A DNA stretch of 64,000 nt, from the NCBI GenBank assembly GCA_023515725.1, contig JALDTO010000098.1, forward strand, positions 276,615-340,614, given 5' to 3'. The DNA comes from Amoeboaphelidium protococcarum X5. Taxonomy: Eukaryota > Fungi > Aphelidiomycota. The notes below the pieces were generated by a model, which ran no database searches, was not told the origin of the DNA, and saw only the letters and a list, made by a program, of their open reading frames with translations. This document shows, in pieces, positions 17,364 to 48,100 of the stretch. Position 1 is the first letter of the stretch, and every line of letters begins with the position of its first letter. The position numbers and the translations under genes are program-made.

Positions 17364-20300
17364 TCAGTAGAGATTGATCAAATCCTGTAATAGTTTTTAA
17401 GCATTAACACGAGTAAAAACATTCTGATCCCAAGCCATGTCAACAATCTGACAATATTTGTCGAGCCTTGGATCTTGGATGGTTGGTTGAATTTATACTC
17501 TGCCACCTGCACAAACAGACTCTTATATCTGTTCTTTAGTGAACCCTTTCCAAGCCGGCTGTCTGTTCAGCAGTTCCGCCAGAATGACAGCACCTGCAAA
17601 GACATCGCGCTTGGGTTTCAAATCATCAGATACAAGTTGCTTCATCCAAACTTCCGGTGCAGCGTATGTAGGAGTGGAACCAGCCAGTGCATTCCAATTC
17701 AGCCCGGTAACCGTCTATGATTTGCCCAGCAGGGTACAAATACCAAAATCGGTCAGGCAGACGCGTACCTGTCCAGATGAAGTGTCCACTAGATAATTGG
17801 CAGCCTTGATATCGTTGTGGACGACACCTGTAGCGTGCATCACCACCATAGCAGAGAATACATCAATAGCCAGAGACTTTACGAGATCAAAATTCCATTC
17901 AACCTACTAACTTAACACGCTCTTCAAACCGATCAAATCATCCAATGATCCATTATGGTAATAGAACATCAGCATAACCAAATTCTCAGCATCAATACCA
18001 GCCAGTTTCGCAATGTGAGCACAATCTTTGAATCTCCACATTAAAGCGACTTCTTGCAAGAAAGCTTCGGAGTTCGCCTTGTTCGATGTATATTTCGCAA
18101 CCATGGTCTGGCCTTCGTATTGACGCAACGGATGGTCGGATGGGGTAGTCAGTATCTGTACAAGCCATATACTACCTTAACCACCAGCATTCAGTTAGGA
18201 GTTTGGAACTTTACGGAAATTCTGACCCTCACTTAGCCGTAAAAATCCGGGAACTGAGATTTCAAACGAGGTTGGGAGCATTGTCGTACCACCTTGCATT
18301 TACGTGCTAATGACTTGCATAGCAGTAGTGGTGGCGGCAGAGGATGCAACACTACTTTGTGTATACGTGCTGGCCCTTGTCATCTAAGTGCTAACCTTTT
18401 TAGTACGACGATACTTTTGGCGCGCATATAGTCCCACAATCAGAACAGCTATCACAAATACACCAGATACAATAGCTGCAACCGCAGATATCATTGACGA
18501 TTAGCCCTATAAAGCCTGAGGCCCAGATTGATCTCGAGCACCCTCATTTGAATTGGTGGAAACAGACTAACCTCCATTAAGATTGCCAATTCCAAAAGTT
18601 ATCAGCCCATTAATTGAAGTACTTACTACAAAAGACGAGCTAGATGGCAATGTAATTGACGTCTTTGTAGAAGAGCTTAGAAAACCAGCCGACTATGTTA
18701 CTGTATATGTAACGGCAGTCGATGTAGATAGGGAGTGAGAAGTATATGAGAATTATGTAGCAGAACCATTGGTAACGGAGCCATTAGTAACAGCAGTAAA
18801 TTACAAGGACGTAGAGAACGAGGTGGCAGTCGGTGTAGAAGTAGTGGTAGTAGTCGTAGTTGTGGTACTAGTTGTGGTAGTGGTCGGAGTGCTTGTAGTA
18901 GAGGTAGTTGTCGTAGTTGTGGGAGTACTAGTCGTTGTTGTGGTCGTCGTCGTAGTAGTCGTAGTTGTTGTACTTGTCGTCGTAGTCGTAGTTGTTGTAC
19001 TTGTCGTCGTAGTACTGGTGGTGGTAGTCGTCGTAGTTGTAGTAGTGGTAAGTACCATAGGAAGCAGATTACCAATCTTTGCCACACCTTGAACAAATGC
19101 CAAATTCTTCGTAACACCAGAGTCTTCAATAACATCTACAGAGCTTCCACTTGTCTGAAAGGAAATGATGAAACCACGATCTTCCAACGCAAAACCTTTC
19201 TGGAGATTAACATTTTACGAGGGAGTATAAATAACAGTTTGATTGAAGAAATTGCCAGTTGAATCAAAGACCATAATGACTGCGTACTGACCGGCGAAGG
19301 GGTGCACGTACTACTTTGTTATACTACCACTGTTGTTAAAGCTGATTGTAGCGGCTGAAGACACACCACTAAACAGCATATTATCGTTTACATCAAATTG
19401 AAGAGGTAGTTTTACAGCGGCAGAGCCAGACACAACTAACCACTTAGAAATAGACCTTGCACCCTGCAGTTTTAATAGATAAGATCCAAAGACCCCAGTT
19501 GATCCAAGAGTCATTACTGCAAAATTTGAAGCATTATACGCAATAAAGGGACCGTTAACGAAAATAGAAACATACGCAGCACCTGACTTATCAAAAGAGA
19601 CTCCACCAGAAGTTTCATCGCCTATGCCAGCAAATCGCCAATTATACTGAAACGCGCCAGTGGAATTAAATATCAACAGAGCACAATCAATTCCTTAAAC
19701 AAAGGGCGCTGAAACCACCCGACCTGTGGAGTCAATAAGATTAACATCATTTTATTGATTCATCTGCATGTACAAGTCGCCATTGGAGCTAATTTACATT
19801 CCAAAGTCCAAGGCAAATGTATAGTCGTTGAGGAAATAAATCAGATTAAGATTATTATCAAGCATAAAGACATGACCATAGCCACCACTGGAAGGACCAG
19901 CGACATTATCATTGTCATAGTATACAACTGGGTTATTTTACCAACCACCAAAACTGTTCCATACATGGATCACGACTTAACCATTAGGGCTAGTGAGGCT
20001 ATAATGAGGCACATTCCACGAGCCATCCGCACCAAAACGTGCAGTTCTCAATAGAGTACCATTACTAGCAAATTTGGCGACTACTGGCTGAGAGCCGCCA
20101 TTTAGAGGAATGGTCTTGGCTACTAGATTAGTTGTAGTGTAAAATTTAAAATCACTTGACTACTCCCATACAGTTGCTATAATGTTATCAAAGGGATCGA
20201 CGGTAAGCTAAGCCATAAAGTCGTCAGCAGCACCACTCATCATTAAATGCCACTGTAACGCGCCAAACTTATCATACTTTGCAATGTAACCATCAACACC

Positions 20301-20504
20301 ACTCTGATAAACCTGGGTTAACACAAAAGAGCCATTTGCAGAGTATATCTGCTCATTCAACTTTCCGACAGCCTAATAAGCGTAGAAATTTCCTTTAGAA
20401 TCTTGTTTAGTAACGTACAAAGAGCCTGTGGCACTGATAGTAAAATCGACGCCAGCAGTGATTACATCGGCCAGCAGCAACCAAGATGAAACTATAAACC
20501 ACAT
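17364..20504 (-). CDS. Receptor-like protein kinase 1 (signal peptide, beta-propeller-like ectodomain, poly-Thr stalk, TM, TKL-type kinase)
   Basis: 1047-codon table-6 frame; kinase motifs 'AGGQGSIWL', 'VAKY', 'HNDIKAANYL', 'TDFG', 'RDVFA'; TM 'MISAVAAIVSGVFVIAVLIVGLY'. Confidence 0.85.
18835..19050 (-). repeat. ACN-codon microsatellite encoding the poly-Thr/Ser stalk of RLK1
   Basis: gta/gtt/gtc/gtg runs on the + strand; about 65 Thr/Ser/Pro codons. Confidence 0.9.
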
Positions 20505-20973
20505 TTTCGTATGCGAGTAATTTATTCAAAGCTTAATAGGGAGATGTAAATGAGACAAAAGCGCAAAATGACTTATAATCCGTAATCTGAACCCAATATG
20601 CATTGGAATAACCTTGGGATTGGACGAGTACAGGAATCTCTGATAGGAATCGTTATTAAATCTATTTTCATGTCTTATACCAAAATGCGATAATGAAAGT
20701 AACATCAGATACTGTATATAACATATATATCAGCTGTTTTTCGACCGCCGCAGCTGCTGAGAGTATCGTTGCGAGTGGCTTGTTTCTAATGCTATCATCG
20801 TTTCACCTCAACAGCTTTTGGGGGAGATCATACAGTGAGAATGCAACTCTCACGGTCGCGGAGACCCCGATTTATCTGCACACAGCGTCTAAAATTAAGA
20901 AATTAATATTGATCACGACTATTTTCTATTCATTTCATCGTTTCCTTTTACTATCATCATTTTTTATTATATA

Positions 20974-21380
20974 AGAAGTAATATCTTTTATTTGGGACCA
21001 AAAGTAAAACAATTTAAATTTTAACTTCGGAGAATATCTAGAAGTAAAATAATACTCACTTTTACTGCGCCATAAATGTCGCCGTAGTAAATCAAATGAT
21101 TATTTTACTTGGAGATCTTAATGGATGCCTAAAAGTATAATTACTTTTGGTCCCAAATAAAAGATTAATTAGCAAGTCAAACTTGAAATGATAACATGCA
21201 TATCTTAAGACAGAACTTGATAGTAAGATTGTGTTTAAAAAGGACCTTAAACCATGACTATCAGGATCCCAAAAAAGTTTTCAATTTTGATCCCAAATAA
21301 TGCATCAAAATGTTAATGAAACCCAACCAGGATGTCTTTGAAAGGTGTCACAGATATCTCAAGGAATCTCTAAGAAATCT
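20974..21380 (+). repeat. Left terminal inverted repeat
   Basis: Outer ~195 bp match the reverse complement of 29011-29205 with ~13 mismatches by manual count; inner ~200 bp match 28797-29010 more loosely. Confidence 0.9.
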
Positions 21381-21541
21381 CAGAAGGTGAACACAACTCG
21401 ACATATCAACCGAATGACGATGGGATAAATGTGCTGTGGTGACTTGAAATCCAACGCTGCTCCGAAATCGCTCAATCAGAACATCGGTAGCCAGATCATC
21501 CAAAAAATCAGAACGCCAATCTCTTTTTTTCAATTTTTACG

Positions 21542-22804
21542 ATGGACCAAAATCAGCTCACACCAAGAGAATGCGCCGCTAAACTAGAAGCCATTGAGAA
21601 GAAGATCGACGACTTGAGGACCAAGAATGAGTACAACGGTGTCGAAATTACTGACAATGAAGAGAAGAAGGAGATAATCGCGGATTTGAAGCAGAAGGAG
21701 AAAGAATGGAGCGCTCGACTCGATCGTGCTCAGTTCGCCTCTACTCAGAAGCCCACCTGGCAATCACCATCATTTACGCTTTCCGCCGAGCCAGCATCTT
21801 ATTCAGTGACTATTATGAATCAAAAGCAGGGCGGCGCATTGTTATTGGCTATTCCGTGTCTATCGAAGGGCAGACGATGGGATCGCGTTCTGCTCTTTCT
21901 GAAGGCCGTGTGTGGCGATTTCGATATTCAGCATTATTCCTTGTCAAGTAACAATTCTGATATCGAGCTTTCAGATGATCTGCACCTTCCTCCTGCCGAA
22001 TTCACGCTCTCCCCGATTGATGATTCTCATTCCGTGCTGACCGTTATTTTCCAACCGCTTCCTATAGTTCCCCGTAGCACGTTGTCGCGACGAACATCAG
22101 GAGCCACTACACCGATTGAAGAACCGTCATCATCATCAAGACCTCAAAAGAAACCACGAGTTGAGTCTGAAGTTGACAAGCTGGTTGTTGAAAGTACGAA
22201 AGCCTTTGGCCGCGACGCGACATTTGAAAAACGAATCTTTCAGCGGGATCAACACTGCATTATCACTCGACAATACAGGTCACTGAAAGCCTCCCATATT
22301 GTTGCTCACGCTTGGTGGATGGACCATCCTGATCGTAAAGAACGACTGCCAGAAGATATCAAAAGGATTATCCGTTCTCTTGATGGGGGTATTGATCATA
22401 TTACCAATGGAATATTTTTGGATGGATCGATTTCAGATGCGTTCGACCGAGGAGACTTTTCGTTTCAGTTTGTGGATGGGCATTACTATGTCGTTTCAAT
22501 TACACCTGACTATGATTCAATCGATGGACTCCAGGTTGATGAATGTGTGCGTAATCGCTGGGATGGCACTGTTTGGTGGTGTCCGGAAAATCGTCCCAAT
22601 CCTTATCTGATGGCATTTCATTTGCGTAATAGTGTGTTTGCTCATTGTCGTGGTGCTGCTGGTTATGATGAATTTGACACCGAAGATGACAAAGAGAATG
22701 TTAAGATTGCGAGATCGGTTGTCAGTGAGTTCTTTGAGAATTCTGAAATCGGAAGTAAGATTGCATCATCGCTTACTTCGGAAGCATTAGCTCAATTTGA
22801 ATAA
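21542..22804 (+). CDS. HNH-endonuclease-domain protein with coiled-coil N-terminus (Crinkler/CR-effector-like); cargo
   Basis: 'FEKRIFQRDQHCIIT...ASHIVA...GGIDHITNGIFL...AFD...RPNPYLMAFHLR' HNH_2-type motifs; 420 aa open in the standard code; TAA stop overlaps AATAAA. Confidence 0.75.
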   Translation: MDQNQLTPRECAAKLEAIEKKIDDLRTKNEYNGVEITDNEEKKEIIADLKQKEKEWSARLDRAQFASTQKPTWQSPSFTLSAEPASYSVTIMNQKQGGALLLAIPCLSKGRRWDRVLLFLKAVCGDFDIQHYSLSSNNSDIELSDDLHLPPAEFTLSPIDDSHSVLTVIFQPLPIVPRSTLSRRTSGATTPIEEPSSSSRPQKKPRVESEVDKLVVESTKAFGRDATFEKRIFQRDQHCIITRQYRSLKASHIVAHAWWMDHPDRKERLPEDIKRIIRSLDGGIDHITNGIFLDGSISDAFDRGDFSFQFVDGHYYVVSITPDYDSIDGLQVDECVRNRWDGTVWWCPENRPNPYLMAFHLRNSVFAHCRGAAGYDEFDTEDDKENVKIARSVVSEFFENSEIGSKIASSLTSEALAQFE

Positions 22805-23028
22805 ACTCATAAACTCTCATGGAAACTCGTATTTTAAGTTATGTCTACTATACATCATCACAGTTTATGTCCCAAACGCCCGAATAAATCAGCGAGCTCT
22901 CGTTCCATATTAACATCATTCGCTATTGTCATCACGATGCTGCTCATTTTGCCGCAAAGATGGACATCGTCAATAAAACCCTGTTTGTTTACTAACTTAC
23001 TTTCTTTCCAACAAAATTTTAGACTAGA

Positions 23029-24999
23029 ATGACCAGCTCGACGCAATCGGTGTCGGGTGAGAGTAAAGCACCATTATATGACCTTCATTGCCATCTAATG
23101 GGTTGCGGTCGATGGGACGATTTTTGGCAGAAGGAGTTGAAGGAAGCGCTGCATAGAGCCCATACGGCAAATTTTGATAAACTGAGAGGCTTAACGGATG
23201 AACAACAGAAATTGTATGAAAGTACACTACTTACGGCAGTGAAGGCGGTGGAAGAATCCGACGATAGGGACAGAGATAGGGACAGAATATCCCCAGTCTT
23301 AAAATGTGACCCTAAGGCCATTTCCACACAAATTCAAAGCGAAGCTCTGCAAACTGCTGTCAAGGAGAGTCCGAATGACCAATTCTTATTCAGCTCACAA
23401 CTGTTGGTTGACAATCGGGTATACAGTCGATTTACTCAACAAGGATTAGGTTGTTACGAGAATTTGGGTGTCATCATTTTTGCGGCAGTGATGGGCTTCT
23501 CCTCGCTACCGGTAATCATCGAAAGTGTGAAAGCTTTAATCGACGGTTTCAGTCGAACCCCAGTTATTACATTGTCATTATGGACGATTATCGTGTTTGG
23601 TGGGATTATGAGTACCAAACTAGTGATGTATCTTTTGTGCCAACGCCTACTCAGCTGCAAGATCAAGCAAAATGTCATATTCTTCAACGAACGTCTCTGG
23701 AAATTTGACATTTATCGTGAAGCACTCCTGGTTCAAGATATTTTTGATTGTCTGGGGATGGAGGGGATGAAACAGTTTTTCGAATCAACTGACGATGCAT
23801 GTGTCTTTACGCCTGGATTTTACCCGAAATGTTTCTTTATGAAGGATGCCCTATATTTTAGAGACATAACGGTTCTGCAACGATTGATTGAAGAAGTGGT
23901 CGAGAAATACAAGAAGGCTGGAGTTGTATATGTCGAGTTCTCTGTTAGCGTCAAAGATTTGTATAAGTATCCGTGGGTGTTTCATCAGCTCTGTGTCAAA
24001 GCGAAGGCTGAAGAAAGAGCCGCGCAAACCCATGACAAAGACGGGGCGGTGAAAGAGAAATCAGAGTGTAAATACCGCTTTTTGGCTGCTGTTGCTCGCA
24101 TGGAGCGAAGATTTGCGTTGAATGATGAGGATGCTATTGCCATAAACAGTAACACAGAGTCGGTAGATGGTTGGTTGGACAGGCAATGTCCTAATGATCC
24201 AATGTCTCACTACTTTGACAGCATGAAAGGTGGTGATGAACTTTTGAAAATGGTTCGCGGTCTCGATTGGGTGTCAGATGAATACGGGTACCCATATTGC
24301 CCGTTTTACCGTGAAAAGTTTTTCGAGTATTCTCGTCGGCAAATTGAACGTAATGCAGAGAAAGGGTTTCCACCATGTTTCGGATTGCGTCCACATTTGG
24401 GTGAAGTGACTGAGAAAGGTTATGAGGAGTGGGTTGATAAGAATGGACGAAAAGTACCTGGTTCGATTTACTTTGACGTTCACAAGAAAATTATCACCAA
24501 GATTGCTGAACGAATGATGCAGGGTCAATTGGTTCCGTATGATCTTGAAGGTAAAAGTTACTATGTTGGTATGCGGTTTGGCCATGGCGTAGCACTACTT
24601 GTCGATTCGCACTTTCAGAAAGGGATGGTAGTGGAACTCAATTACACCAGCAATAAGAGATTGCTTCGATTTCTCGGTTGTCACGAGTTTGTAGAAGCGT
24701 CCAAAAATAGCCTTGTGAATGAATTGATTGCCAACATTGTTATAGGTACGGATAATGACGGCATATTTCCCTGCATAACAGGGGATGAACAGTTAATTAA
24801 AGCTGAACTTCTGAACCTAAAAAAGGACGGCTTCGTCGATACCATTCCCGACCGACCTGATCAACAAATTGTTGCTCAAGCATACCAATGTACTTTCAAT
24901 TACTATGATGGTTGGTCACCCAGATTCCTCTTGCAGGCAAAAACTCATACAGTTTTGCCTTTGGATACAAATGCTGATCAATTGGCGCCCTACCCTTAA
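23029..24999 (+). CDS. Adenosine/AMP deaminase-like amidohydrolase; cargo
   Basis: Metal/catalytic motifs 'DLHCHL', 'VVYVEFS', 'HLGE', 'RFGHG', 'VELNYTSN', 'GTDNDGIF'; 656 aa open in the standard code; stop TAA-TGA. Confidence 0.75.
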   Translation: MTSSTQSVSGESKAPLYDLHCHLMGCGRWDDFWQKELKEALHRAHTANFDKLRGLTDEQQKLYESTLLTAVKAVEESDDRDRDRDRISPVLKCDPKAISTQIQSEALQTAVKESPNDQFLFSSQLLVDNRVYSRFTQQGLGCYENLGVIIFAAVMGFSSLPVIIESVKALIDGFSRTPVITLSLWTIIVFGGIMSTKLVMYLLCQRLLSCKIKQNVIFFNERLWKFDIYREALLVQDIFDCLGMEGMKQFFESTDDACVFTPGFYPKCFFMKDALYFRDITVLQRLIEEVVEKYKKAGVVYVEFSVSVKDLYKYPWVFHQLCVKAKAEERAAQTHDKDGAVKEKSECKYRFLAAVARMERRFALNDEDAIAINSNTESVDGWLDRQCPNDPMSHYFDSMKGGDELLKMVRGLDWVSDEYGYPYCPFYREKFFEYSRRQIERNAEKGFPPCFGLRPHLGEVTEKGYEEWVDKNGRKVPGSIYFDVHKKIITKIAERMMQGQLVPYDLEGKSYYVGMRFGHGVALLVDSHFQKGMVVELNYTSNKRLLRFLGCHEFVEASKNSLVNELIANIVIGTDNDGIFPCITGDEQLIKAELLNLKKDGFVDTIPDRPDQQIVAQAYQCTFNYYDGWSPRFLLQAKTHTVLPLDTNADQLAPYP

Positions 25000-25050
25000 T
25001 GAATGCAGGTATGCCTTTACCACTGGGTTTTAATGATGCCAATAAATCCT

Positions 25051-26085
25051 TTACTTTCTTGATCTCTTACTTTGTCTTCTATCAGGCTCAATACCTTCAC
25101 GTTCACGAATGCGTTTATCAGCGCGGTAGATGTCAAGTTGCTTTTGCCTCAGTGAATTGTCAATGTCTTGACTTAGCGGTGACACCTTTAGCACTTCAAA
25201 CAAGTTGAATTTCTGGTGCCGACCTTCCACTTGAACACTATTTAATCCCACCTCCTCAACAATGTACACCTTTAACGTGAATCGCTGTCCCTCTTTCTCA
25301 AACGCGCCTCGTTTATTCAACAACCTGACAAAGTCCCCACGTTTGATGGCCGAATCAATAACTTTATTGTTGTGCGCAATACTTTTCCTAATCAGTTCCG
25401 CTTCATCAAATGTATCTAATCGCTCGGGTATCTTTGCGATGCTGCTATGAAATGATGAGTTGTAATTTTGAACAAAGTCTCCCAGATTATCAATCCATCT
25501 ATTGGTATTATTACGCGTCAGGAACTTTTCAATCATCAGTTTGATCGTGCGATTGAACCTCTCCGCAATCCCTAAACACTTCTTATCATCCTTCCCACAA
25601 TACTGGGCAGTGATATTATGCTGCGACATCCAAGATGTTATTCGTTTGTTTTGAAACTCTTTACCATTATCAGTCTGTAAAACTTTGATCGGTCTTCCAT
25701 CGTTGACTGATTGTTGTCGGATTAGATCAAAGGCTGCCAATACAGTTTCTTGAGTTTTATCTTTCAATGCTTCAACATATGCATATTTGGTGTTGACATT
25801 GATAACGTTGAGTAAGATATGATAGTTTGAATTCTGCTTTTGGTATCGTGTCAAGAAGGTCAGATCTGCCTGGTAATGCCCGACTTTACCGTGGATCTTT
25901 GGAACCGATTTAGAGTTCTTTGGTTTCTGAAACACTTGGCTTATTGGATTTTCAGCAAGGAACTCCTTAACCTGTTTCATTGTGATTTTTGGATTCTGCT
26001 CCTTGGCGCGTTTCAACAGCTTATCAGCTCCAACAAACCCTGTTTTGGGATCATTGAAAAGTGTACTTAGTAATTGTTGAGACAT
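25051..26085 (-). CDS. Retroviral-type (RVE) integrase, Polinton clade
   Basis: 'YQADLTFL' (D), 'LQTDNGKEF' (D), 'GIAERFNRTIK' (E), 'YNSSFHSSI', 'GDFVRL..RGAFEK'; likely start MSQQLL at 26085; ends TAA. Confidence 0.92.
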   Translation of the reverse strand: MSQQLLSTLFNDPKTGFVGADKLLKRAKEQNPKITMKQVKEFLAENPISQVFQKPKNSKSVPKIHGKVGHYQADLTFLTRYQKQNSNYHILLNVINVNTKYAYVEALKDKTQETVLAAFDLIRQQSVNDGRPIKVLQTDNGKEFQNKRITSWMSQHNITAQYCGKDDKKCLGIAERFNRTIKLMIEKFLTRNNTNRWIDNLGDFVQNYNSSFHSSIAKIPERLDTFDEAELIRKSIAHNNKVIDSAIKRGDFVRLLNKRGAFEKEGQRFTLKVYIVEEVGLNSVQVEGRHQKFNLFEVLKVSPLSQDIDNSLRQKQLDIYRADKRIREREGIEPDRRQSKRSRK

Positions 26086-26125
26086 GTATATATCAAAAAA
26101 GATAATCTTTATCAATAAATAATAA

Positions 26126-27922
26126 TTAATTACTGGATCGATGACCCATTGGAACTGAGTTGTTTCCAATGAAATGGCGTCCTTTCCATGGGGTGGAATT
26201 AATTTGTTTTGTTAATGCATCCAGCTTCAGAATACTGAAATTATCTACGTTTTGCTGTTTTGAGCTCTTGTTTAAATTGACGCGTTTGAAGTCTCTTTGC
26301 ATTTCAATATTGACCGGTTCCCCTCGCATCATCAATTCAAAGTTTTTCATGTTTAACTGATCGTTGGGTATGCCTTTGCCTCGTAAGTGATACTTGATCT
26401 CCTCAACATCGCCTTGTTTTTGAACGTACTCAAGAAAGTATAACTTTGGGGCAATCCATCCACCATACAGGATTTTACTCACTCCAGGCAGGTCATCACT
26501 TATGCCTCCGATCTCATTATCCAGAGTTAATCCCTTCAAGTTCTTGACGTGAATTTGAATACTATCTGTATCTGTGTAGTAAGGCGCGTTTTCAAGCTGA
26601 TTTTTTGTGTCAGCGCTATTGAAATATAGATTAGTCTTTTGTAAGTAATCGAGCATTATCCTGCGACTGTACCCCAGAATGAAACTTCCCAGATAGCAAG
26701 GCTTTGAAATCTTTGTTGCAAGTTTGGATTCATCCTGATAGGTAAGGTAGAAGCTTCCATCGCTTAAATATCGCATTGATACTCCACCGTATTTGATGTG
26801 AAACTTGATGAATTCTTCGTGAAGGTAAATGATCACGTTCTCGTCAAGAATGGGCCGTTGGATGGTTTTACCATATAGTCCATTCATCATCAACTTGGCT
26901 AGTTTGTACTGGGCACTGCCCTTTGTAGCATTTTTCTTGAATTCATACAGGTAGTTGATGTAGTTATTGAACACGTTCTCAGTCTGCTCCCAGTAATATC
27001 CCTCCAATATATCTATTTGATACCCATTCGTGAGAGCGTTATCAATATCAACACTGTTATATGTTCCACATCCATCAACCAAATCCCATAATAATCGCCC
27101 ATCACTTCTCCTTGGCAAAATAGCATCAATCAAGTTTCTATTTGTTACATATTCCACGCGGTAGATGCCAAATTTTGAACACTTATTATTCTGTTGGATT
27201 GACTGGTTAAAGTATTTGCATGATGGAGTGCCAGGTCTCAGATGTACTGGAATACCTACTGGGAATTCGTTTTTCATGGCAGCTGGATACAAGGAATTCA
27301 CATCTGCATTAACTAAGTAGTCATCAATATCTTCAAACTTGATCTGCTTACGGATATAGGGCTCACGTTGGCTACTCACAAACTTGTGTTTGTATTTGTA
27401 TGTTCTCCCTCCATAAATTGACTCTCTAAAGAACTGCTCTTGCTCTGGGGTGGGTAGAAAAACTGGATTGTTGCTTTCCTTATACAAGAAATCAACCCAT
27501 GCAGCGTAAGTCAGCTTTGATGTTGATAGAAACTTGTAAAGATTAACACCGAAATTCTCGAAACAACTTTTGTTTAATCGCTGGGACAGTTCTTTCAATC
27601 CCATTACATCGCCTTCCAAGTATTTCAAACAATCTGTTCGGTCATCATTGCACATGTTATCCCACTCATCTCCCAATATGTAATCAAAATCACCTTTCTG
27701 AACTGCACACTCTAACTCCTCGAGGTTCTTTCTCAACGTTCCTGTAATGTGTTTCGATATATCAAAACACGAGATATTTCCAATACTGGCTTTGAGAATG
27801 GCTCCGTTGTTTAACAGCAGCGTATCCAGCTTGATATCCACATTATCGCTATGCATCTGATTGAGTTTCTTGACAAATTCGTAGTGATCAAATTTGCTGC
27901 CGTTGAATGCATTGATGATGAC
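26126..27922 (-). CDS. Protein-primed family B DNA polymerase, 5'-truncated (no ExoI)
   Basis: ExoII 'AFNGSKFDH' upstream of the called ATG, ExoIII 'YLEGDV', motif A 'DVNSLYP', B 'KLMMNGLYGK', C 'YTDTDS', 'APKLY', 'RGKG'. Confidence 0.88.
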   Translation of the reverse strand, partial: VIINAFNGSKFDHYEFVKKLNQMHSDNVDIKLDTLLLNNGAILKASIGNISCFDISKHITGTLRKNLEELECAVQKGDFDYILGDEWDNMCNDDRTDCLKYLEGDVMGLKELSQRLNKSCFENFGVNLYKFLSTSKLTYAAWVDFLYKESNNPVFLPTPEQEQFFRESIYGGRTYKYKHKFVSSQREPYIRKQIKFEDIDDYLVNADVNSLYPAAMKNEFPVGIPVHLRPGTPSCKYFNQSIQQNNKCSKFGIYRVEYVTNRNLIDAILPRRSDGRLLWDLVDGCGTYNSVDIDNALTNGYQIDILEGYYWEQTENVFNNYINYLYEFKKNATKGSAQYKLAKLMMNGLYGKTIQRPILDENVIIYLHEEFIKFHIKYGGVSMRYLSDGSFYLTYQDESKLATKISKPCYLGSFILGYSRRIMLDYLQKTNLYFNSADTKNQLENAPYYTDTDSIQIHVKNLKGLTLDNEIGGISDDLPGVSKILYGGWIAPKLYFLEYVQKQGDVEEIKYHLRGKGIPNDQLNMKNFELMMRGEPVNIEMQRDFKRVNLNKSSKQQNVDNFSILKLDALTKQINSTPWKGRHFIGNNSVPMGHRSSN

Positions 27923-28287
27923 CTGAGAATAGGTCGAATAACTGAGCAGGTGATTAATGAATTGTTCTTTTCCTTGCTCGCGAAATAAGCTAAATCCCGA
28001 ATTGGCATTCTTTCATTCATGCCGATTAGATATCCATCATTCGATAATTTGATTTTCAGTCGATATTCAAACTTCCTTTTAAAGTCTGTGTAGTCCATTT
28101 GATAGTAATCATTCAGCAGATCAACTAATGAATATGTGTCATCCTCAGATATTACCATGATATTATTCAGTTTTTTTCTGAGGCATTGCTTCTTACTATC
28201 AAAGTACAAACTAAACTCATCAAAGATATAATCTATAGTAGGAAGCCTCTTTGGCTCTTCGAAATTAAGTTTGTTTGTACGAACCAT
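27811..28287 (-). CDS. Element ORF, probably the pPolB N-terminal remnant joined out of frame
   Basis: 158 aa standard-code ORF preceded by the same AT-rich motif as the integrase; its last ~35 codons read the PolB ExoII region in another frame. Confidence 0.5.
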   Translation of the reverse strand: MVRTNKLNFEEPKRLPTIDYIFDEFSLYFDSKKQCLRKKLNNIMVISEDDTYSLVDLLNDYYQMDYTDFKRKFEYRLKIKLSNDGYLIGMNERMPIRDLAYFASKEKNNSLITCSVIRPILRSSSMHSTAANLITTNLSRNSIRCIAIMWISSWIRCC

Positions 28288-28344
28288 CGATGTATATAAT
28301 AGGAAATATATTTATTACCAAAATAATTAATTAATACCTCTTAC

Positions 28345-28790
28345 GTTTGACCTTTCGAGCTTTGAGCTTTGACCTTTGATCTATCTTTGACCTTTGCACC
28401 TTTTGACCTTTCACCTTTGATCTATCTTTGACCTTTGCACCTTTGCACCTTTTGACCTTTTGACCTTCAATTATTTAATTATTTTCTACAAAATTTTCAT
28501 TCCCAATATATAGCACGAGGTTGCATCACACATAGCTTGATCGGAAGTTTCAACTTTGACCTTTTTCACCTTTAGCAAATGATCTAATGACCTTTCGACC
28601 TTTCAACTTGTGATCTTTAACCTTTTGACGCTTCACCTTTGCATCTTTAAACTTCTACGCCTTTGTTTTGCACAATCTCGCATTCTATTGAGCTTTATGA
28701 GAATATTCAACTTTGACCTTTGCGCCTTTGACAAATGATCTAATCCCTAATCCTTTGACCTTCGACCTTTGACATATCACCTTTTGAGAT
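28345..28790 (+). repeat. Degenerate (T)TGACCTTT tandem array in two clusters
   Basis: Many units of tttgacct/tttgcacct/tttcacct at 28345-28470 and 28555-28790, all on one strand. Confidence 0.8.
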
Positions 28791-28796
28791 TTATTT

Positions 28797-29205
28797 GCGA
28801 TTTCTTCAAGATTTCTCGCTGATATCTGTAACGCGTTTCAAAGACATCCTATGTTGGGTTTCATCCAAATATTGTTGCATTATTTGAAATCAACATTGAA
28901 TGCTCGGCTGCGATCTCTTTATACGTGGTTTAAGTTCATTTTAAGACGATCTTGTTATTATCAAACTCAAGACGTAGTTTAAGTACTACTTGAGGGTCTA
29001 ACCATTCAAATTAATATTTTATTTGGGACCAAAATTAATTACACTTTTAGGCATCTATCAAGATCTCCAAGTAAAATAATCATTCGATTTACTACGGCGA
29101 CATTTATGGCGCAGTACAAATGATTATTATTTTACTTTTAGATATTCTCCGAAGTAAAAATTTAGCTTGTTTTACTTTTGGTCCCAAATAAAAGATATTA
29201 CTTCT
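28797..29205 (-). repeat. Right terminal inverted repeat
   Basis: Reverse complement of the left TIR. Confidence 0.9.
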
Positions 29206-29247
29206 TATATATCACTGTTCTAAAGTAATCAAAGAGCCAATTGCTCA

Positions 29248-32200
29248 TCATAGATTGACCAAATCATTCAATACGCGTTGAGCATGTACACGCGTAAATA
29301 TATTTTGATCCCAGGCCATATCAATTATTTGACAATATTTGTCGAGCCTTGGATCTTGGATGGTTGGTTGAATTTATACTCTGCCACCTGCACAAACATA
29401 CTCTTATATCTGTTCTTTAGTGAACCCCTTCCAAGCCGGCTGTCTGTTCAGCAGTTCCGCCAGAATGACAGCACCTGCAAAGACATCGCGCTTGGGTTTC
29501 AAATCATCAGATACAAGTTGCTTCATCCAAACTTCCGGTGCAGCGTATGTAGGAGTGGAACCAGCCAGTGCATTCCAATTCAGCCCGGTAACCGTCTATG
29601 ATGTGCCCAGCAGGGTACAAATACCAAAATCGGTCAGGCAGACGCGTACCTGTCCAGATGAAGTGTCCACTAGATAATTGGCAGCCTTGATATCGTTGTG
29701 GACGACACCTGCCGCGTGTAGCACTACCATAGCAGAAAATACGTCAATAGAGAGAGACCTAATCAGTTCAAAGCTCCAAACAATTTGCTAACTTAACACG
29801 CTCTTCATATTTACAAAATCATCCAATGATCCATTTTGGTAATAGAACATCAGCATAACCAAATTCTCAGCATCAAAACCTGCCAATTTTGCAATGTGAG
29901 CACAATCTTTGAATCTCCACATCAATGCAACCTCTTGTAAGAAAGCCTCTGCACTAACCTTATTAGTAGAATACTTTGCAACCATAGTCTAACCATCACA
30001 TTAACGGAAAGGATGATCAGACGGAACAGTAAGTATCTAGACAAGCCAAATACTACCTTGACCGCCTGCATTTAGCAGAGAATTAGGAATTTTACGAAAA
30101 TTCTGCCCCTCACTAAGCTTTAAGAATCCGGGCACCGAAATTTCAAATTAGGTAGAGACCATAGTAGTGCCACCCTACATTTATGTGCTTCGAATCTCCA
30201 TGACAGTGGAGGAAGCTGCAGAGGGAGCGACACTATTCTGAGTTAACGTGCTGGCTTTAGTGCTAATCTTCTTGGTACGACTAAACTTTTGACGCGCATA
30301 TAAAGCAACAGCTAATACTGCGACTACAAAGATGCCAGAAACAATAGCTGCAACTGCAGATATCATTGACGACTAATTTTGTTGAGCCTAAGGCCCAGAT
30401 TGATCTCGAGCACCCTCATTTGAATTCGTGGATACAGATTAGCCTCCAATAGAACCACCAATACCAAACGTTATTAGCCCATTAATTTAAGAGCTAACTG
30501 CAAAAGATGAGCTCGATGACAATTTAACTGGCGTCTTTATAGAATAACTCAGAATACCAGCTAAAGATGATACTGTATATGTAACGGCAGTCGATGTAGA
30601 TAGGGAGTGAGAAGTATATGAGAATTATGTAGCAGAATCATTGGTAACGGAGCCATTAGTAACAGCAGTAAATTACAAGGACGTAGAGAACGAGGTGGCA
30701 GTCGGTGTAGAAGTAGTGGTAGTAGTCGTTGTTGTGGTTGTGGTCGTGGGCGTCGGAGTACTAGTTGTGGTTATTGTACTCGTCGTGGTGCTAGTGGTAG
30801 TGGTTGTCGTAGTAGTTGTTGTAGTAGTCGTCGTAGTCGTAGTAGTGGTCGTGGTTGTTGTAGTAGCAGTGGTGTACAGCACGGTAGGTACAGGTAGGAA
30901 ATCCAACAATCTCGCAACACCTCTCTGGATAGGAATGGCAACTTGGCCACCTCTTGTATCATTAAACAAAACGCCCTGTCCATCAGTGATAAAGCCAGCA
31001 AGCATTTTGTTCTACGGAAGCCACTAAAAATAGCCAAATCTTGTATTTTGTGTTGCATTGTACAATAAACTGCGACCCCAAATCTTGCCCAGATTATGAT
31101 AAGCAAACACAATACCATACTGAAACGGGAACTAACGATTGTATTGCGTAGAAATTACACCAGTAGTGTTAATACTCAAAACAGCAGCATCAGAATATAA
31201 AGCATAAAACAAATTATCCTCATTGTCCATGAGCATGTTGCCTGTAGTGGATCCAGCACCACTTACGCTGGACCACCATGTAACAGATGTCCCGCCATTC
31301 AGCTTGAAAAAATAAGCCCCAGATACACCGGTTGCACCCATTTATAACACGGGAGTATTAACAACATTAAAAACAGTGAACGGACCACTGGAGGATACCT
31401 GTTAAATCGGAGCACCAGCATTATCAAAAGTTAGCTAAATAGGCGCCTAATCGCCTGGGCCACTAAATCTCCAAAAATATAAGAAAGCTCCAGTGGGATC
31501 AAATACTATCAAGTTGACATCGATGCCAGAATCATAAAGAGTATAAACTTCAAAGCCTTTGGTATCCGTGAGAGCCGTACCTGACTATGCATACTGCTGA
31601 TAATAAAGCACACCTGTGGGTCCTATAGTTAAACGCGAAAATACAGCGAAGCTACCATCATCCACATTATAGATGTGATTGAGGTTATTGTCCATCATGA
31701 AGATGTGCCCGCCACCATTACTGGTTGCGACAATGGTACCATTATTGTCGTACATATTCACTGGATTGGTTGGCCATCCGCCGTAAGAGTTCCACATCTG
31801 TACCGCAAACCATCCGTTTGGCCCAAGCACAGACCAATTTGGAACATTATATGAACCAGGGGCATACAGTTGAGCTGTGCGGAGCAAAGTACCGTTGGGA
31901 TGAAACTTGGCAACGACGCCTTAAGTGCCACTCGGGATGTTGATAGACTTCACAGGCTAATGATTAGTGCTATAATACTTAAAGTCTTGCGATGTTGTCC
32001 AAGTAGAAAAGAACAGATTATCCTGCGCGTCAACAAAAGGACCTTAACCCCAATCATCACCGCTACCAGCAATGTGGAAGTACCATAATAGATTACCTTA
32101 GGTGTTAAATTTCATGTAGATACTGTCTGAACCACCTCCAGCGTAGAAAGTTGTTGTTGTCACAGACCCATTCGCAGAATAGATCTACTCACCAACTTTA

Positions 32201-32340
32201 TATACATATGCACGTGCGTAAAAGTTACCTGCGGAGTCAATAGTGGAGAGTTCATAATCACTCGAGCTTCGAATAGTAAATTCATTAGAAGCAACAGCCA
32301 AGTTGATTAGCAATGCAGTCAAAGCCAGGCGAATATTCAT
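29248..32340 (-). CDS. Receptor-like protein kinase 2 (paralog)
   Basis: 1031-codon table-6 frame from MNIRLALTALL to ...DLVNL-TGA; same architecture; kinase C-lobe nearly identical to RLK1. Confidence 0.85.
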
Positions 32341-32517
32341 TGATGGCAAATTATTCGTAAATAATGACGATAAAGCACGAAGTCTGTACTGTATGCTGAT
32401 GTAATAGTAACACAAGTTGTCTGATTGGTGCATTAATAGCAGGATTGATTGGCCATTCTTAGGCCGAAAAAGCAACACATGAAGCTAACACGGTAAATAG
32501 ATTATTTTACTTCAAAT

Positions 32518-35500
32518 TCATTTCAAACCATAAAGAGAATTCAGAACTTACATTGCGTGCGGCCTTAACGTGACATCCTACTCCCAAGCAGTGTAAATGA
32601 TCGCAAGTAACGCGTCATTCTTCGGGTCTTCAAAGCATGGAGTCAAAGCAGGACGTTCGCCGGCCAAGACAGCTTGACTTATTAGATCTCTGCTTTGTCC
32701 TGCCCATGCCACTTTTCTGTTGACCATCTCAGCCATTATGACAGCACCAGCATAGACGTCACGTTTCATTCTCTGTTAATCAAGCAATACTTGCTTAAGC
32801 CATACTTCAGGTGCCGCGTACATCGCAGTAAAGCCATTAAGCGCATTCCATGTCATACCAGTAACTGCTTTGGATGAACCCAAGAGGGAGCATATACCGA
32901 AATCGGTAAGACAAACGCGAATTTAACCAGATGACACATCGACGAGATAATTGCCAGCCTTAATATCATTGTGCACGACACCTGCTTGATGAGTAACCTG
33001 AATAGCGGCAAAGACGTCCACAGACAATGAATACACCAAGTCGAAATTATAAGTTACTAGACGGCTAATTTCGCTCTTACTTTCGATGAACATTTCAAGT
33101 GAACCTTGCTAGTAATGAGCCATTAAAAGGATCATATTCAGTGGGTCAAATCCGACTATTTTTGCTATGTGTGCGCTATCCTTAAATCGCCACATAAGAG
33201 CCACCTCTTACAAGAAAGCTTCAGACTAGCCCACGCCATTACTATACTTGGCAACAAATTTCTCGCCGGGCTGTGGTCTTAAAGGATATTAATAAGGTAG
33301 ATCCAGTATTTAAGCCAGCCATATAGAACCTTGGCCACCAGCGGTGAGTTGAGAATTAGGAATCTAACGAAAGTTGAGCCCTTCTGTCAGTCTCATGAAC
33401 CCAGGAACTGAGATCTCATAGGATGTCGGAACCAGTGTCGTTCCGCCTTGCATATTCGTAGCCCCTTGATGTATAGTGGTAGTTAATGCAAAAGATGCAA
33501 GGCTACTTTAAGTATACGTACTTGCCCTGGTGACTTGTGAGGTGATCTTAACACGGCGACGATGTAATTTGTGACGAGCATATAAAGCAGCTAGTACAAC
33601 TACCAGAACAAAGACAGCAGCTATTATTGCCACGATAGTCGATAACATCGAAGATGAGCCTTATAGAGCTGATGAATTAGACTAATTTTGAGTAGAATCA
33701 TCCACACCAGTTGTCGATTGAACCTTACTGTACGCAAAGTCTCCCAATCCAAAAGTGACAACGCCAACAGATAAGGAAGTCTTAATAGTTGTAAATGAGG
33801 ACGACTACAGCAATGGTTATGTCGTCTGTTCGACTAGCGACGTATTTGTCTTTGTGCTTGTACCAAAAGCTACCGTTGATGATGCATTCGCAATACTAGT
33901 AAATAGACCTGCGGCGACATTCCAGGTACTTGAAGATGCAGCGGATGCGAAAGGCGCAGTATTATTATTAGCAGTAATTGAAGTCGTGGTAGTAGGAGTA
34001 ATAGTGGAAGTTGTTGTCGTCGTCAATGTTGTCGTAGTCGTTGTGGAGGTGGTAGTAGATGTTGTAGTTGTTGTTGTTGTTGTGCTTGTAGTCGTCGTTG
34101 TACTTGTAGTAGTAGTTGTTGTTGTCGTGGTGGTTGTGGTAGTTGTCGTCGTCGTACTAGTCGTAGTACTGGTGGTGGTAGTCGTCGTGGTCGTTGTAGT
34201 GGTAGGTACCATAGGAAGCAGATTACCAATTTTTGCAATGCCTTGAGCGAAGGCGTAATTCTACGTAGTACCAGAATCTTCAATAATGTTCACAGAACTT
34301 CCACTTGTTTGGAAAGCTACTAGAAAGTCGCGATTTGCCAATACAAAACTTCCAAAGAGAGTAATACTTTACGCAGAAGTGTAGATTACAGTTCGGTTGA
34401 GGAAAGAACCAGCTTCATTAAAAACCATAATGATTGCGTACTGACCGGTAAATGGATGCACATACTAATTAGTGACAACACCATTGTTGTTAAAGCTAAT
34501 CGTAGCGGCTGCGGACACACCGCTAAAGACCATATTGTCATTTGTATCCAAAGCGAGAGATAATCTTACAGCGGCAGAGCCGGTTATAGACGACCATTTC
34601 AATATAGATCTGCCACCATTAAGCTTGAAGACATAAGATCCGGATACTCCAGCTGCTCCAAGCGTCATAACTGCAATGTTAGAAGCATTGTAAGCAACAA
34701 AAGGACCATTGACGAACACCGAAGCATAAACAGCACCAGACTTGTCAAAAGAAACTCCACCAGGTATTTCATCACCTGTACCAGCAAATCGCCAATAGTA
34801 CTAGAATGCACCGCTGGAGTTGAATACCAACATAGGGCAGTCCACTCCGCTAACTAAAGGTGCAGAAATCAAGCGACCTGTGGAATCAGTCAAGCTCACA
34901 GCAGTTTACTGATTCATTTGCAAAAATTAATCCCCATTAGCGTTAATTGTCATTGTGACATCCACGGCGAAAGTGTTATCGTTGTGGAAGTACACAAGAT
35001 TTAGATTATTGTCAAGCATGAACCTATGACCAGTGCCGCTACTGGACGGGCCAGCAACATTATCATTATTATAATAGACGACTGGATTGTTTTACCAACC
35101 ACCGAAGCTGTTCCATATATGAACCAATACCTGTCCATTAGGACCCACGACTGAACTCTGAGGCACATTCCACGAGCCAGCCGCGTCCAAACGCGCAGTC
35201 CTTAACAGAGTGCCATTACTAGAAAATTTGGCAACAACTGCCTATGAGCCACCACTTAAAGGAATAGTTTTGGCCACTTGGTTAGTTGTTGTGTAAATTT
35301 TGAAATCACTAGACTACTCCCATATTACTGCAATAATGTTATCAGAGGGATCAATGTTAAGAGAATACATATAATCGTCATTAACACCTGTCATCATGAG
35401 ATGCCACTACAACGCGCCAAACATATTATACTTTGCAATGAACGATTCAGCACTTCTCTGATAAACCTGAGTTTACACGAATGAGCCATTAGCAGAGTAT

Positions 35501-35658
35501 ATACGCTCATTCGCGACTCTGACATGTGAATACGTGTAGAAGAAGCCTTTCGAGTCTTGTTTAGTTGCCCATGTACCCGTGGCAGCCCTGACTGTAAAGT
35601 CGACGCCAGCAGTGATTAAGTTGGCAAGCTGCAGGGAAGCTACCACGATAGCCCACAT
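32518..35658 (-). CDS. Receptor-like protein kinase 3 (paralog)
   Basis: 1047-codon table-6 frame from MWAIVVASLQL to ...LYGLK-TGA; 'HNDIKAGNYL', 'TDFG', 'RDVYA'; poly-Thr at ~33980-34203. Confidence 0.85.
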
Positions 35659-36444
35659 TCTTAGAAATAGTTACATATCGAATCAAACTATTTAAAAATT
35701 ATAATCTTATAATTATCAACTTAACCAATTATATGATGTAAAAAGGAGCACCGTAACGAAATTTTGGGACTATATGCAGCGAAGTGGCTTGGGATTGGCC
35801 AGAATAAGCATCTCTGATTGGAGCCTTAATTATAACTAATGGGTATGGCCTCTTTCATTAACTATTAATCTTTGGCCAAATTCACTGCATAACGCTGTAT
35901 TAGACTTTATATATAATGGCTATTGTTTCAGTAATACGCTATTTTTGCTTTAAAAAATACGATGAAGAATATAGTAACAAAGAAGTGATGGGAGCATGAC
36001 ACTTTAACAGAATCGCGCCAAAGATGATTAGAAAGTAGAATTTTATTGCAATATAGATATATTTCGCAGCTATTATTGATTTGTTCAGTTAGAACCTCTA
36101 TGGCTGCATCTGCGTAAACTCCATACACAATCGATAGTTTGATACAGTACCACAAAGCAACCGCGCGAAATTGAATTCAAAAACTGAGAAAAGGTCCAGT
36201 AAATTCTATATAAGTTATACTAGCAGCAATTAGAACAAGGGAGTCAGTGTACAGTAGAGTTAAATACTTTGTTGTTTCATGTCTTGATCATAGCGGCGGA
36301 AATCATTCCAATCAACGGGCGACGGTCAACTGTCTACTCATTCATTCATTCTCGCTATTTCGCCCCATCGCAACAGACTGAAAGTGAGAGCCGGTGAAAC
36401 CATCAGGATTCCTCTCTCCCTCTCTCGTTGCTCCCAGTACAACA

Positions 36445-47959: not shown

Positions 47960-48100
47960 ATTGAATTAATAGATTGGTAAATTTCATCTTATCATCAAGT
48001 TTCTTAACTGATTTAACTCGCTTACAGTCTATTTCATCGGTTTGTCCGACAAACATTACTGTATATATCAGGCGCGCCTTTCGGCGCGGCAATTCCATTA
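47960..48100 (-). ncRNA. Candidate Fanzor omegaRNA (scaffold + 3' guide)
   Basis: CGCGCC-GAAA-GGCGCG hairpin over the last codons; nested TACAGT/ACTGTA and GTTTGTC/GACAAAC stems just downstream; position as expected for TnpB/Fanzor. Confidence 0.5.

What the first reader, a model, noticed from the sequence alone, without database searches (positions are those of the whole stretch)
17364..35820. Receptor-kinase array shuffled at a poly-Thr hinge: RLK1 = RLK3-type ectodomain + RLK2-type stalk/TM/kinase
Seen: N-terminal of the Thr run, RLK1 matches RLK3 ('ITAGVDFT', 'IGNLLPMV.TTT'; even the upstream ttgggattgg...tctctgat.gga at ~20615 vs ~35790), while RLK2 is more divergent. C-terminal of the run, RLK1 matches RLK2 ('STPTATSFSTSL', TM 'MISAVAAIVSG', kinase), while RLK3 differs. 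The switch lies inside the ACN microsatellite. Inference: the mucin-like repeat acts as a crossover hinge that swaps sensor and signalling modules, diversifying receptors in a parasite.
Basis: partly seen in the sequence, partly recalled or inferred. Interest (0 to 1): 0.7.

Follow-up and report, generated by a model that had tools for sequence, protein, structure and literature searches.

The report
Hybrid receptor kinase in algal parasite
Of three neighbouring receptor-kinase genes in an algae-eating relative of fungi, one has the outer half of one neighbour and the kinase half of the other, likely fused long ago by recombination in a threonine-repeat stalk: real, but a familiar way for surface proteins to diversify.

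Summary
Observation confirmed. Read with code 6 (TAA/TAG=Gln), the region holds three intronless receptor-like kinases of the aphelid Amoeboaphelidium protococcarum: predicted beta-propeller ectodomain, Thr tract, Ser/Thr stalk, one TM helix, non-RD kinase. RLK1 sides with RLK3 before the Thr tract (496 vs 115 informative sites) and with RLK2 after it (503 vs 89); ectodomain and kinase trees conflict (AU p 0.003, 0.017). Contigs of other runs carry the same joins, so misassembly is unlikely. An active hinge or hotspot is not shown. A new instance of known repeat-mediated chimera formation.

The parts
17364..20504 (-). RLK1, 1046 aa, intronless, code 6; hybrid gene (RLK3-type ectodomain, RLK2-type stalk/TM/kinase)
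19055..20453 (-). RLK1 ectodomain, predicted all-beta propeller related to SBBP-repeat proteins; 69% aa to RLK3, 38% to RLK2
   Evidence: pLDDT 74, pTM 0.79; best PDB match CylK, TM 0.58-0.60
19006..19076 (-). Short RLK1=RLK3 identity patch (exact runs of 25 and 29 nt; partner about 34160-34230) at ectodomain end and start of Thr tract; likely a small conversion
   Evidence: 29-nt run vs maximum 23 in 300 codon shuffles
18840..19049 (-). RLK1 Thr tract (70 codons, degenerate ACN repeat); holds the old breakpoint
18699..18857 (-). Conversion tract 1, RLK1=RLK2 (partner 30571-30729), 1 mismatch in 159 bp, starts at the 3' end of the Thr tract
18423..18494 (-). RLK1 transmembrane helix (MISAVAAIVSG...), hydropathy peak 2.89 at residue 672; end approximate
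17385..18200 (-). RLK1 kinase domain: GGQGSIW, VAKY, HNDIKAAN (non-RD), TDFG, YAAPE; limits approximate
17956..18041 (-). Mini tract RLK1=RLK2 (partner 29837-29922), 4 mismatches in 86 bp, in the kinase; weakest of the three tracts
17449..17830 (-). Conversion tract 2, RLK1=RLK2 (partner 29330-29711), 3 mismatches in 382 bp, kinase C-lobe
20563..20640 (-). Short upstream motif shared with RLK3 (about 35790-35840)
   Evidence: weak
20974..29205 (.). Polinton-like element, 8232 bp, ends AG...CT, about 415 bp inverted ends (80%), TATATA on both sides (20968-20973, 29206-29211)
21542..22804 (+). Element ORF with HNH domain (PF13391), no TAR codons, followed by TAA
23029..24999 (+). Element ORF, 656 aa, no convincing family hit; deaminase-like HxH motif by eye (recalled, untested)
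25051..26082 (-). Element integrase (rve, PF00665)
26129..28287 (-). Element protein-primed DNA polymerase B (PF03175; 26129-28012) and an overlapping upstream ORF in another frame (27811-28287)
29248..32340 (-). RLK2, 1030 aa; divergent ectodomain, Thr tract about 30711-30870; inferred parent of RLK1's 3' half
32518..35658 (-). RLK3, 1046 aa; Thr tract about 33990-34205, divergent stalk and kinase; inferred parent of RLK1's 5' half

Best explanation
RLK1 joins an RLK3-type ectodomain to an RLK2-type stalk, membrane helix and kinase at the Thr tract, likely through one old recombination event between the RLK3 and RLK2 lineages, and was later likely patched by gene conversion from RLK2. Shown: the mosaic, its breakpoint in the tract, dS near 1 on both halves, near-identical patches with RLK2. 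Inferred: RLK3 and RLK2 are the unrecombined old pair; a crossover or deletion between their Thr tracts (their most similar stretch, alignable in any codon register, and a linker where a join breaks no folded domain) made an in-frame hybrid with RLK3's 5' flank and RLK2's 3' flank; the hybrid class now has at least two genes (RLK1, P0004). The order RLK3-RLK2-RLK1 fits duplication of the pair followed by a deletion between the tracts of the second copy, or re-insertion of a hybrid copy, but not one simple unequal crossover, which would put a hybrid with the RLK2 ectodomain in the middle. The tract is a permissive join point and afterwards a passive border of homology, not a shown hotspot. The proteins would work as single-pass receptors that couple ligand binding by the propeller to a non-RD Ser/Thr kinase (untested).
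For: Site counts and breakpoint. Trees: ectodomains RLK1+RLK3+P0004 100/100, RLK1+RLK2 rejected p-AU 0.0033; kinases RLK1+RLK2+P0004 99/98, RLK1+RLK3+P0004 rejected p-AU 0.017. Synonymous sites agree: dS 0.94 for ectodomain RLK1-RLK3, 1.09 for the unconverted C-half RLK1-RLK2, RLK2-RLK3 saturated or above 1.3 in every region; fourfold sites differing in the ectodomain 62 of 151 (1-3) against 51 of 78 (1-2), in converted tracts 0 of 107. Distance ratios ectodomain/kinase N-part: RLK2-RLK3 1.57/0.76, RLK1-P0004 0.41/0.15, and the hybrid's halves to their parents 0.42 and 0.21. P0004, annotated on another contig, has an RLK1/2-like sequence directly after its tract (TPTATLSSTFAQ), which places the old join in the tract and not in the later-converted stalk. 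Longest identical RLK1/RLK2 run 174 nt against a maximum of 83 in 2000 codon shuffles. Flanks: 3' flank of RLK1 matches RLK2's (35 vs shuffle maximum 26), not RLK3's (20 vs 29). Other runs: X9 record 24 covers 18816-20967 in one piece; X5 record 10 runs from the RLK2 ectodomain through a Thr tract to the RLK1/2-type tract end; an X5 contig joins 33938 to 34170 across RLK3's tract.
Against: Only four kinase-bearing members of this subfamily were found, so polarity rests on parsimony. P0004's ectodomain is closer to RLK3 (77%) than to RLK1 (70%) while its kinase N-part is closer to RLK1 (86%) than RLK2 (80%), which may mean a second event; the ectodomain tree does not resolve this (82/88, 47/25). 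RLK2 and the outgroup P0011 are long branches that meet; the tree of the kinase N-part alone is unresolved. X9 record 24 reaches only 24 letters past the tract (42 past the start of the RLK1=RLK2 run) and has 61 gap letters; contigs, not long reads, were laid; no piece spans the whole array. The 5' flank match to RLK3 barely exceeds shuffles.
Confidence: 0.68

Rival explanations
1. The Thr tract is a recurrent crossover hinge that keeps re-pairing ectodomains and kinases across the family.
For: Three of 9 mapped ends lie in a tract that is 210 of 3141 nt. P0004 may be a second hybrid. The same ectodomain family also occurs without a kinase (P0011, P0164, P0165). X5 contigs show joints between the tracts of different genes and shorter tracts.
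Against: Both halves of RLK1 have dS near 1 from their parents: no recent swap. The two recent ends in the tract are expected without a hotspot, because homology with RLK2 and with RLK3 stops there. Six of 9 ends lie elsewhere. No reciprocal type among 8 hits. The kinase-less members have no poly-Thr run (9-10 Thr per 30 residues against 27-28). The X5 joints were called at 80% likeness in low-complexity sequence and can come from other Thr-rich genes.
Confidence: 0.17
2. The RLK1/P0004 build is ancestral; RLK2 took a foreign ectodomain and RLK3 a foreign stalk and kinase in two separate events from donors not seen here.
For: RLK1 and P0004 look like ordinary paralogues over their whole length (ratio 0.41/0.15); the family sample is incomplete.
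Against: Needs two events and two unseen donors, and makes the ordinary RLK2-RLK3 ratio (1.57/0.76) a coincidence. No donor appeared.
Confidence: 0.1
3. Misassembly at the Thr repeat made the chimera, and the near-identical tracts are collapsed repeats.
For: Short-read unitigs break at the tracts and no laid piece spans the array.
Against: All three ectodomains and all three kinases are distinct sequences; the three tracts are only 69-76% alike; neither linear re-ordering through the tracts gives congruent trees (reasoning); P0004 has the same build on another contig; X9 and X5 carry the same joins; the near-identical tracts keep 1, 4 and 3 mismatches.
Confidence: 0.03
4. No recombination: RLK2's ectodomain and RLK3's kinase merely evolved fast.
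For: RLK2 (ectodomain) and RLK3 (kinase) are the long branches.
Against: Synonymous and fourfold sites switch partner at the tract as the amino acids do; in the C-half the fourfold intervals overlap (0.51 vs 0.64, each +-0.10), so this rests mainly on the ectodomain and on NG86 dS.
Confidence: 0.02

Closest known systems
Recombinant yeast adhesins (ALS, FLO, IFF/HYR)
   Same: The N-terminal domain of one gene placed on the Ser/Thr-rich repeat stalk of another; recombination within a family as a source of new adhesins (PMC8712946, passages); coding repeats enriched in cell-surface genes (PMC3899988, passages).
   Different: Here the product is a transmembrane receptor with a cytoplasmic kinase, not a GPI-anchored adhesin; the repeat is a degenerate single-codon Thr run, not a long-unit minisatellite.
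Plant receptor-kinase tandem clusters (Arabidopsis OAK/At5g59670)
   Same: Tandem RLK array with a recent gene-conversion tract making two paralogues identical over part of their length, and discordance between regions (PMC3136440, passages).
   Different: Unrelated ectodomain (SBBP-like propeller, not malectin/LRR); a Thr tract at the join; an opisthokont parasite; intronless genes in code 6.
Aphelid receptor-like kinases (Mikhailov et al. 2022, recalled; paper not held)
   Same: [quoted passage not shown] Paralogues P0004, P0007-P0010, P0161, P0162 are annotated hypothetical proteins.
   Different: I could not see whether that paper or its supplements describe this propeller subfamily or its mosaic structure.
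Polinton/Maverick elements (for the insert)
   Same: Long inverted ends, AG...CT termini, 6-bp flanking repeat, protein-primed polymerase B and rve integrase; the defining features are recalled.
   Different: Only 8.2 kb; no packaging ATPase, protease or capsid hit among 5 ORFs; carries an HNH gene and an unassigned 656-aa gene; codon use looks like the standard code in a TAR=Gln host.

Membership tests
Receptor-like kinase (single-pass) | Cytoplasmic protein kinase domain with catalytic residues | tested here: met
   PF00069 above cut-off in 3 of 3; K, HxD, DFG, APE present, non-RD (for RLK1, for all)
Receptor-like kinase (single-pass) | One transmembrane helix between ectodomain and kinase | tested here: met
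   One hydropathy peak (2.85-3.22) in each of the 3
Receptor-like kinase (single-pass) | Folded extracellular domain | tested here: met
   All-beta model pLDDT 74, propeller matches, profile hits to SBBP-repeat proteins
Receptor-like kinase (single-pass) | Cleaved signal peptide | tested here: inconclusive
   Apolar N-termini by eye, below the 1.9 hydropathy cut; no signal-peptide predictor available
Receptor-like kinase (single-pass) | Ligand-dependent kinase signalling | not testable with these tools
   Needs experiments
Repeat-mediated paralogue chimera (ALS/FLO type) | 5' part from one paralogue, 3' part from another | tested here: met
Repeat-mediated paralogue chimera (ALS/FLO type) | Join inside the Ser/Thr-coding repeat | tested here: met
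   Breakpoint between columns 486 and 552; P0004 post-tract sequence
Repeat-mediated paralogue chimera (ALS/FLO type) | Recurrent, ongoing exchange at the repeat | tested here: inconclusive
   One old event suffices; 3 of 9 ends in the tract; four members only
Yeast ALS/FLO adhesin families themselves | NT-Als or PA14 domain and GPI anchor | tested here: not met
   No such Pfam hit; TM helix plus kinase instead. Works alike in recombination only; not a member.
Polinton/Maverick (insert) | Terminal inverted repeats with AG...CT ends | tested here: met
   421-column inverted match, 80%; ends
Polinton/Maverick (insert) | 6-bp target-site duplication | tested here: inconclusive
   TATATA on both sides, but it is its own reverse complement and could belong to the inverted repeat; empty site not seen directly
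Polinton/Maverick (insert) | Protein-primed DNA polymerase B and retroviral-like integrase | tested here: met
   PF03175 E 1.7e-49, PF00665 E 3.6e-11
Polinton/Maverick (insert) | Packaging ATPase, cysteine protease, capsid genes; size above about 10 kb | tested here: not met
   No such hit for 5 ORFs in Pfam or PHROGs; 8232 bp. Filed as Polinton-like, not as a full member.

The most novel reading that the evidence does not exclude
Aphelids carry a modular receptor kit in which a degenerate Thr-codon tract is a built-in, frame-preserving recombination hinge that repeatedly re-pairs bacterial-type propeller sensors with non-RD kinases, giving a fungal sister lineage a combinatorial repertoire for recognising algal hosts.
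Probability: 0.17. Interest if true: 0.65.

Novelty: new member of a known kind. Interest (0 to 1): 0.38.

Why it matters
It is a clean, datable case of domain swapping and later gene conversion in a receptor family from the sister group of fungi, where nothing is known of how the parasite recognises its algal host. RLK1 against RLK2 (similar kinase, different ectodomain) and RLK1 against RLK3 (similar ectodomain, different kinase) form a natural pair of contrasts for testing input and output specificity. The mechanism itself is known from yeast adhesins and plant RLK clusters, so a specialist would be interested, not surprised. The inserted Polinton-like element with standard-code genes in a TAR=Gln genome may deserve its own follow-up as a case of transfer across a genetic-code barrier.

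Tried and rejected
No whole genome was held, so homeologous copies of the array could not be read. Exact look-up found none of the 5 RLK translations tried (1 of 9 proteins found, the polymerase). Three homolog searches gave no close copies of RLK1-3, only P0004 and more distant paralogues; candidates were capped and length-limited, so this is no proof of absence. Metagenome scan with the four-protein alignment: 174 pattern matches, none related (patterns may miss TAR-coded Gln). Viral-contig scan with the polymerase: nothing. Sequencing runs: no RNA holder listed; expression not assessed. Bins 21529-24763 inside the element had no cover in X5, X6 and X9; lack of cover is not taken as evidence. 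A second laying of runs gave no result, so longer bridging of the RLK1 join and the element's empty site stay open. The atlas did not answer for the 656-aa ORF. One search stopped on a script error after printing identities (redone); the tract-2 comparison was 3 nt out of register and was discarded (tract-2 figures come). The 2-vs-3 shuffle used out-of-frame triplets and is not relied on. Earlier scan notes: none. Rejected: simple unequal crossover as the origin of the gene order; pure microsatellite; misassembly; rate variation alone. Literature: searches for aphelid+receptor-like+kinase (4 papers), the genome paper's title+receptor, Amoeboaphelidium+Polinton and the mechanism terms showed no description of this array in the listings; the genome paper and its supplements were not available and may cover it.
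Full report
What the window is. Host genes are open only with TAA/TAG read as Gln. The nearest database relative of RLK1 is labelled Amoeboaphelidium protococcarum, and the window's own polymerase protein is in NCBI on a 1,966,960-base contig, the length also listed for a named A. protococcarum protein. The host is therefore this aphelid, a parasitoid of algae in the sister group of fungi (PMC10608142, abstract and passages).

The three genes. RLK1 (17364-20504), RLK2 (29248-32340) and RLK3 (32518-35658) are intronless minus-strand ORFs of 1046, 1030 and 1046 aa. Each has an ectodomain of about 470 aa, a Thr tract, a Ser/Thr stalk, one hydrophobic helix and a kinase above the Pfam cut-off with an HND, i.e. 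non-RD, catalytic loop. The link between non-RD kinases and pattern recognition in plants and animals is recalled, not tested. The ectodomain model is all-beta (pLDDT 74, three-sequence alignment); its best PDB matches are CylK and other propellers, and a profile of it hits thousands of repeat proteins, of which the 4 non-aphelid ones scanned all carry SBBP repeats.

The mosaic is real. Before the tract 496 informative sites join RLK1 to RLK3 and 115 to RLK2; after it 503 join it to RLK2 and 89 to RLK3; the best breakpoint is the tract (chi-square 527, permutation maximum 13.9). With outgroups, ectodomains group RLK1+RLK3+P0004 (100/100) and reject RLK1+RLK2 (p-AU 0.0033); kinases group RLK1+RLK2+P0004 (99/98) and reject RLK1+RLK3+P0004 (p-AU 0.017) (five and nine rows; long branches flagged; P0010, P0164 and P0165 left out). 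Synonymous sites switch in the same way, so uneven protein rates alone do not explain it.

It is old, with young patches. dS is 0.94 for the RLK1-RLK3 ectodomain and 1.09 for the unconverted RLK1-RLK2 C-half, while RLK2-RLK3 is saturated or above 1.3 in every region. On top lie tracts of near identity between RLK1 and RLK2: 159 bp with 1 mismatch from the 3' end of the Thr tract, 86 bp with 4, and 382 bp with 3 in the kinase; 0 of 107 fourfold sites differ in the two large ones, and the longest exact run (174 nt) is twice the maximum of 2000 shuffles. A 71-bp patch with exact runs of 25 and 29 nt links RLK1 to RLK3 at the start of the tract.

Which gene is the hybrid. RLK2-RLK3 has an ectodomain/kinase distance ratio of about 2 (1.57/0.76), RLK1-P0004 about 2.8 (0.41/0.15), whereas RLK1-RLK3 (0.42/0.73) and RLK1-RLK2 (1.70/0.21) are aberrant; the hybrid's halves lie 0.42 and 0.21 from their parents, again about 2. 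One fusion of an RLK3-lineage 5' half with an RLK2-lineage 3' half explains all four genes. The flanks agree: RLK1's 3' flank matches RLK2's, its 5' flank weakly matches RLK3's. Against a single event, P0004's ectodomain is nearer RLK3 (77%) than RLK1 (70%), unresolved in trees. The order RLK3-RLK2-RLK1 does not follow from one unequal crossover; pair duplication with a deletion between tracts, or re-insertion of a hybrid, does (inference).

Why the tract, and whether it is a hotspot. Between RLK2 and RLK3 the tracts are the most similar stretch (69-76%, against 65% in the kinase), align in any codon register and code for a linker, so a join there stays in frame and breaks no domain (inference). 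But only 3 of 9 mapped ends are in the tract, and two of these are where homology with the donor stops anyway. No gene with the RLK2 ectodomain on another kinase was among the 8 hits; the three other aphelid hits there besides P0004 are kinase-less receptors without a poly-Thr run. Another array (P0008, P0009, P0010) also shows patchy identity without a poly-Thr run, so conversion in this family does not need the tract.

Misassembly is unlikely. Of 4 runs laid as contigs, X9 (a metagenome of another study) has one piece over 18816-20967 with 56 other letters and 61 gap letters, crossing RLK1's tract, though only 24 letters past it; X5 record 10 runs from RLK2-type ectodomain (30792-31315) through a tract to the RLK1/2-type tract end; another X5 contig joins 33938 to 34170 over a shorter RLK3 tract (36 letters on the short side). 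X1, possibly the source sample, is no independent support. No piece spans the array and long reads were not available.

The insert. Between RLK2's stop and RLK1's upstream region lies an 8232-bp element (20974-29205) with 80%-identical inverted ends, AG...CT termini and TATATA on both sides. It encodes a protein-primed polymerase B, an rve integrase, an HNH protein and two unassigned ORFs, with no capsid, ATPase or protease hit. Its five ORFs use 0 of 101 TAR among Gln codons against 235 of 469 in 12 host ORFs (Fisher p 3e-27), and four are followed directly by TAA: they look adapted to the standard code, which suggests recent arrival from another host (inference). X9 record 24 stops matching at 20967, at the element's edge, with 217 letters left over, a hint of an empty site that was not confirmed. 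Nothing ties the element to the swap; it likely came later.

Comparison with what is known. Placing one gene's N-terminal domain on another's repeat stalk is described for yeast adhesins (PMC8712946, passages; PMC3899988, passages), and conversion tracts in tandem RLK clusters for Arabidopsis (PMC3136440, passages). A dual transcriptome paper on this species gave no passage on parasite receptor kinases among 9 shown (PMC8657485). The genome paper recalled as reporting aphelid receptor-like kinases was not held; it or its supplements may describe these genes. Searches were seen as listings only.

Verdict. Observation confirmed; interpretation partly supported. A genuine, old domain swap at a Thr linker plus recent gene conversion: a new member of a known kind. 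Interest 0.38. The bolder reading, a recurrent hinge building a combinatorial sensor repertoire, is not excluded (0.17) and is testable with the full family and long reads.

Noticed in passing
window 20974-29205: Polinton-like element without capsid, ATPase or protease hits, with polymerase B, integrase, HNH and a 656-aa unassigned gene; 0 of 101 Gln codons are TAR and four ORFs are followed by TAA, in a host where TAA/TAG code Gln: likely a recent arrival from a standard-code host. Worth its own follow-up.
   Followed up: partly
window 20983-21165 and 29009-29203: Each inverted end holds its own internal palindrome of about 190 bp, a MITE-like or hairpin sub-structure.
   Followed up: no
window 28346-28790: Degenerate TTTGACC-type tandem repeats inside the element's right end, upstream of the polymerase.
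   Followed up: no
window 27811-28287 (-) and 26129-28012 (-): The polymerase region is in two overlapping frames; whether one gene or two was not resolved.
   Followed up: no
window 25039-27703: X9 contigs match the integrase and polymerase at about 87-92% and all four runs have integrase-like contigs: related elements exist in other samples.
   Followed up: no
window 48071-50239 (-): 723-codon ORF in host-type code (24 TAR of 49 Gln codons) with no Pfam hit at 1e-4; by eye it has RuvC-like and zinc-finger motifs of TnpB/Fanzor proteins (recalled, untested).
   Followed up: no
P0011, P0164, P0165: Kinase-less single-pass proteins with the same propeller ectodomain family, a Ser/Thr stalk and a short tail: possible co-receptors or decoys.
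   Followed up: partly
P0008, P0009, P0010, P0162: A second propeller-RLK group with patchy identity between paralogues (53-96% in 50-column windows), suggesting conversion there too.
   Followed up: partly
window 18984-20861: In X5, X6 and X9 the RLK1 ectodomain region is about 97-98% identical to the window while RLK2 and RLK3 pieces are about 86-94%; may reflect exchange between duplicated genome copies.
   Followed up: no
window 57373-59034 (-): AIG1/MMR_HSR1-type GTPase gene, a family recalled as linked to host-parasite interactions.
   Followed up: no
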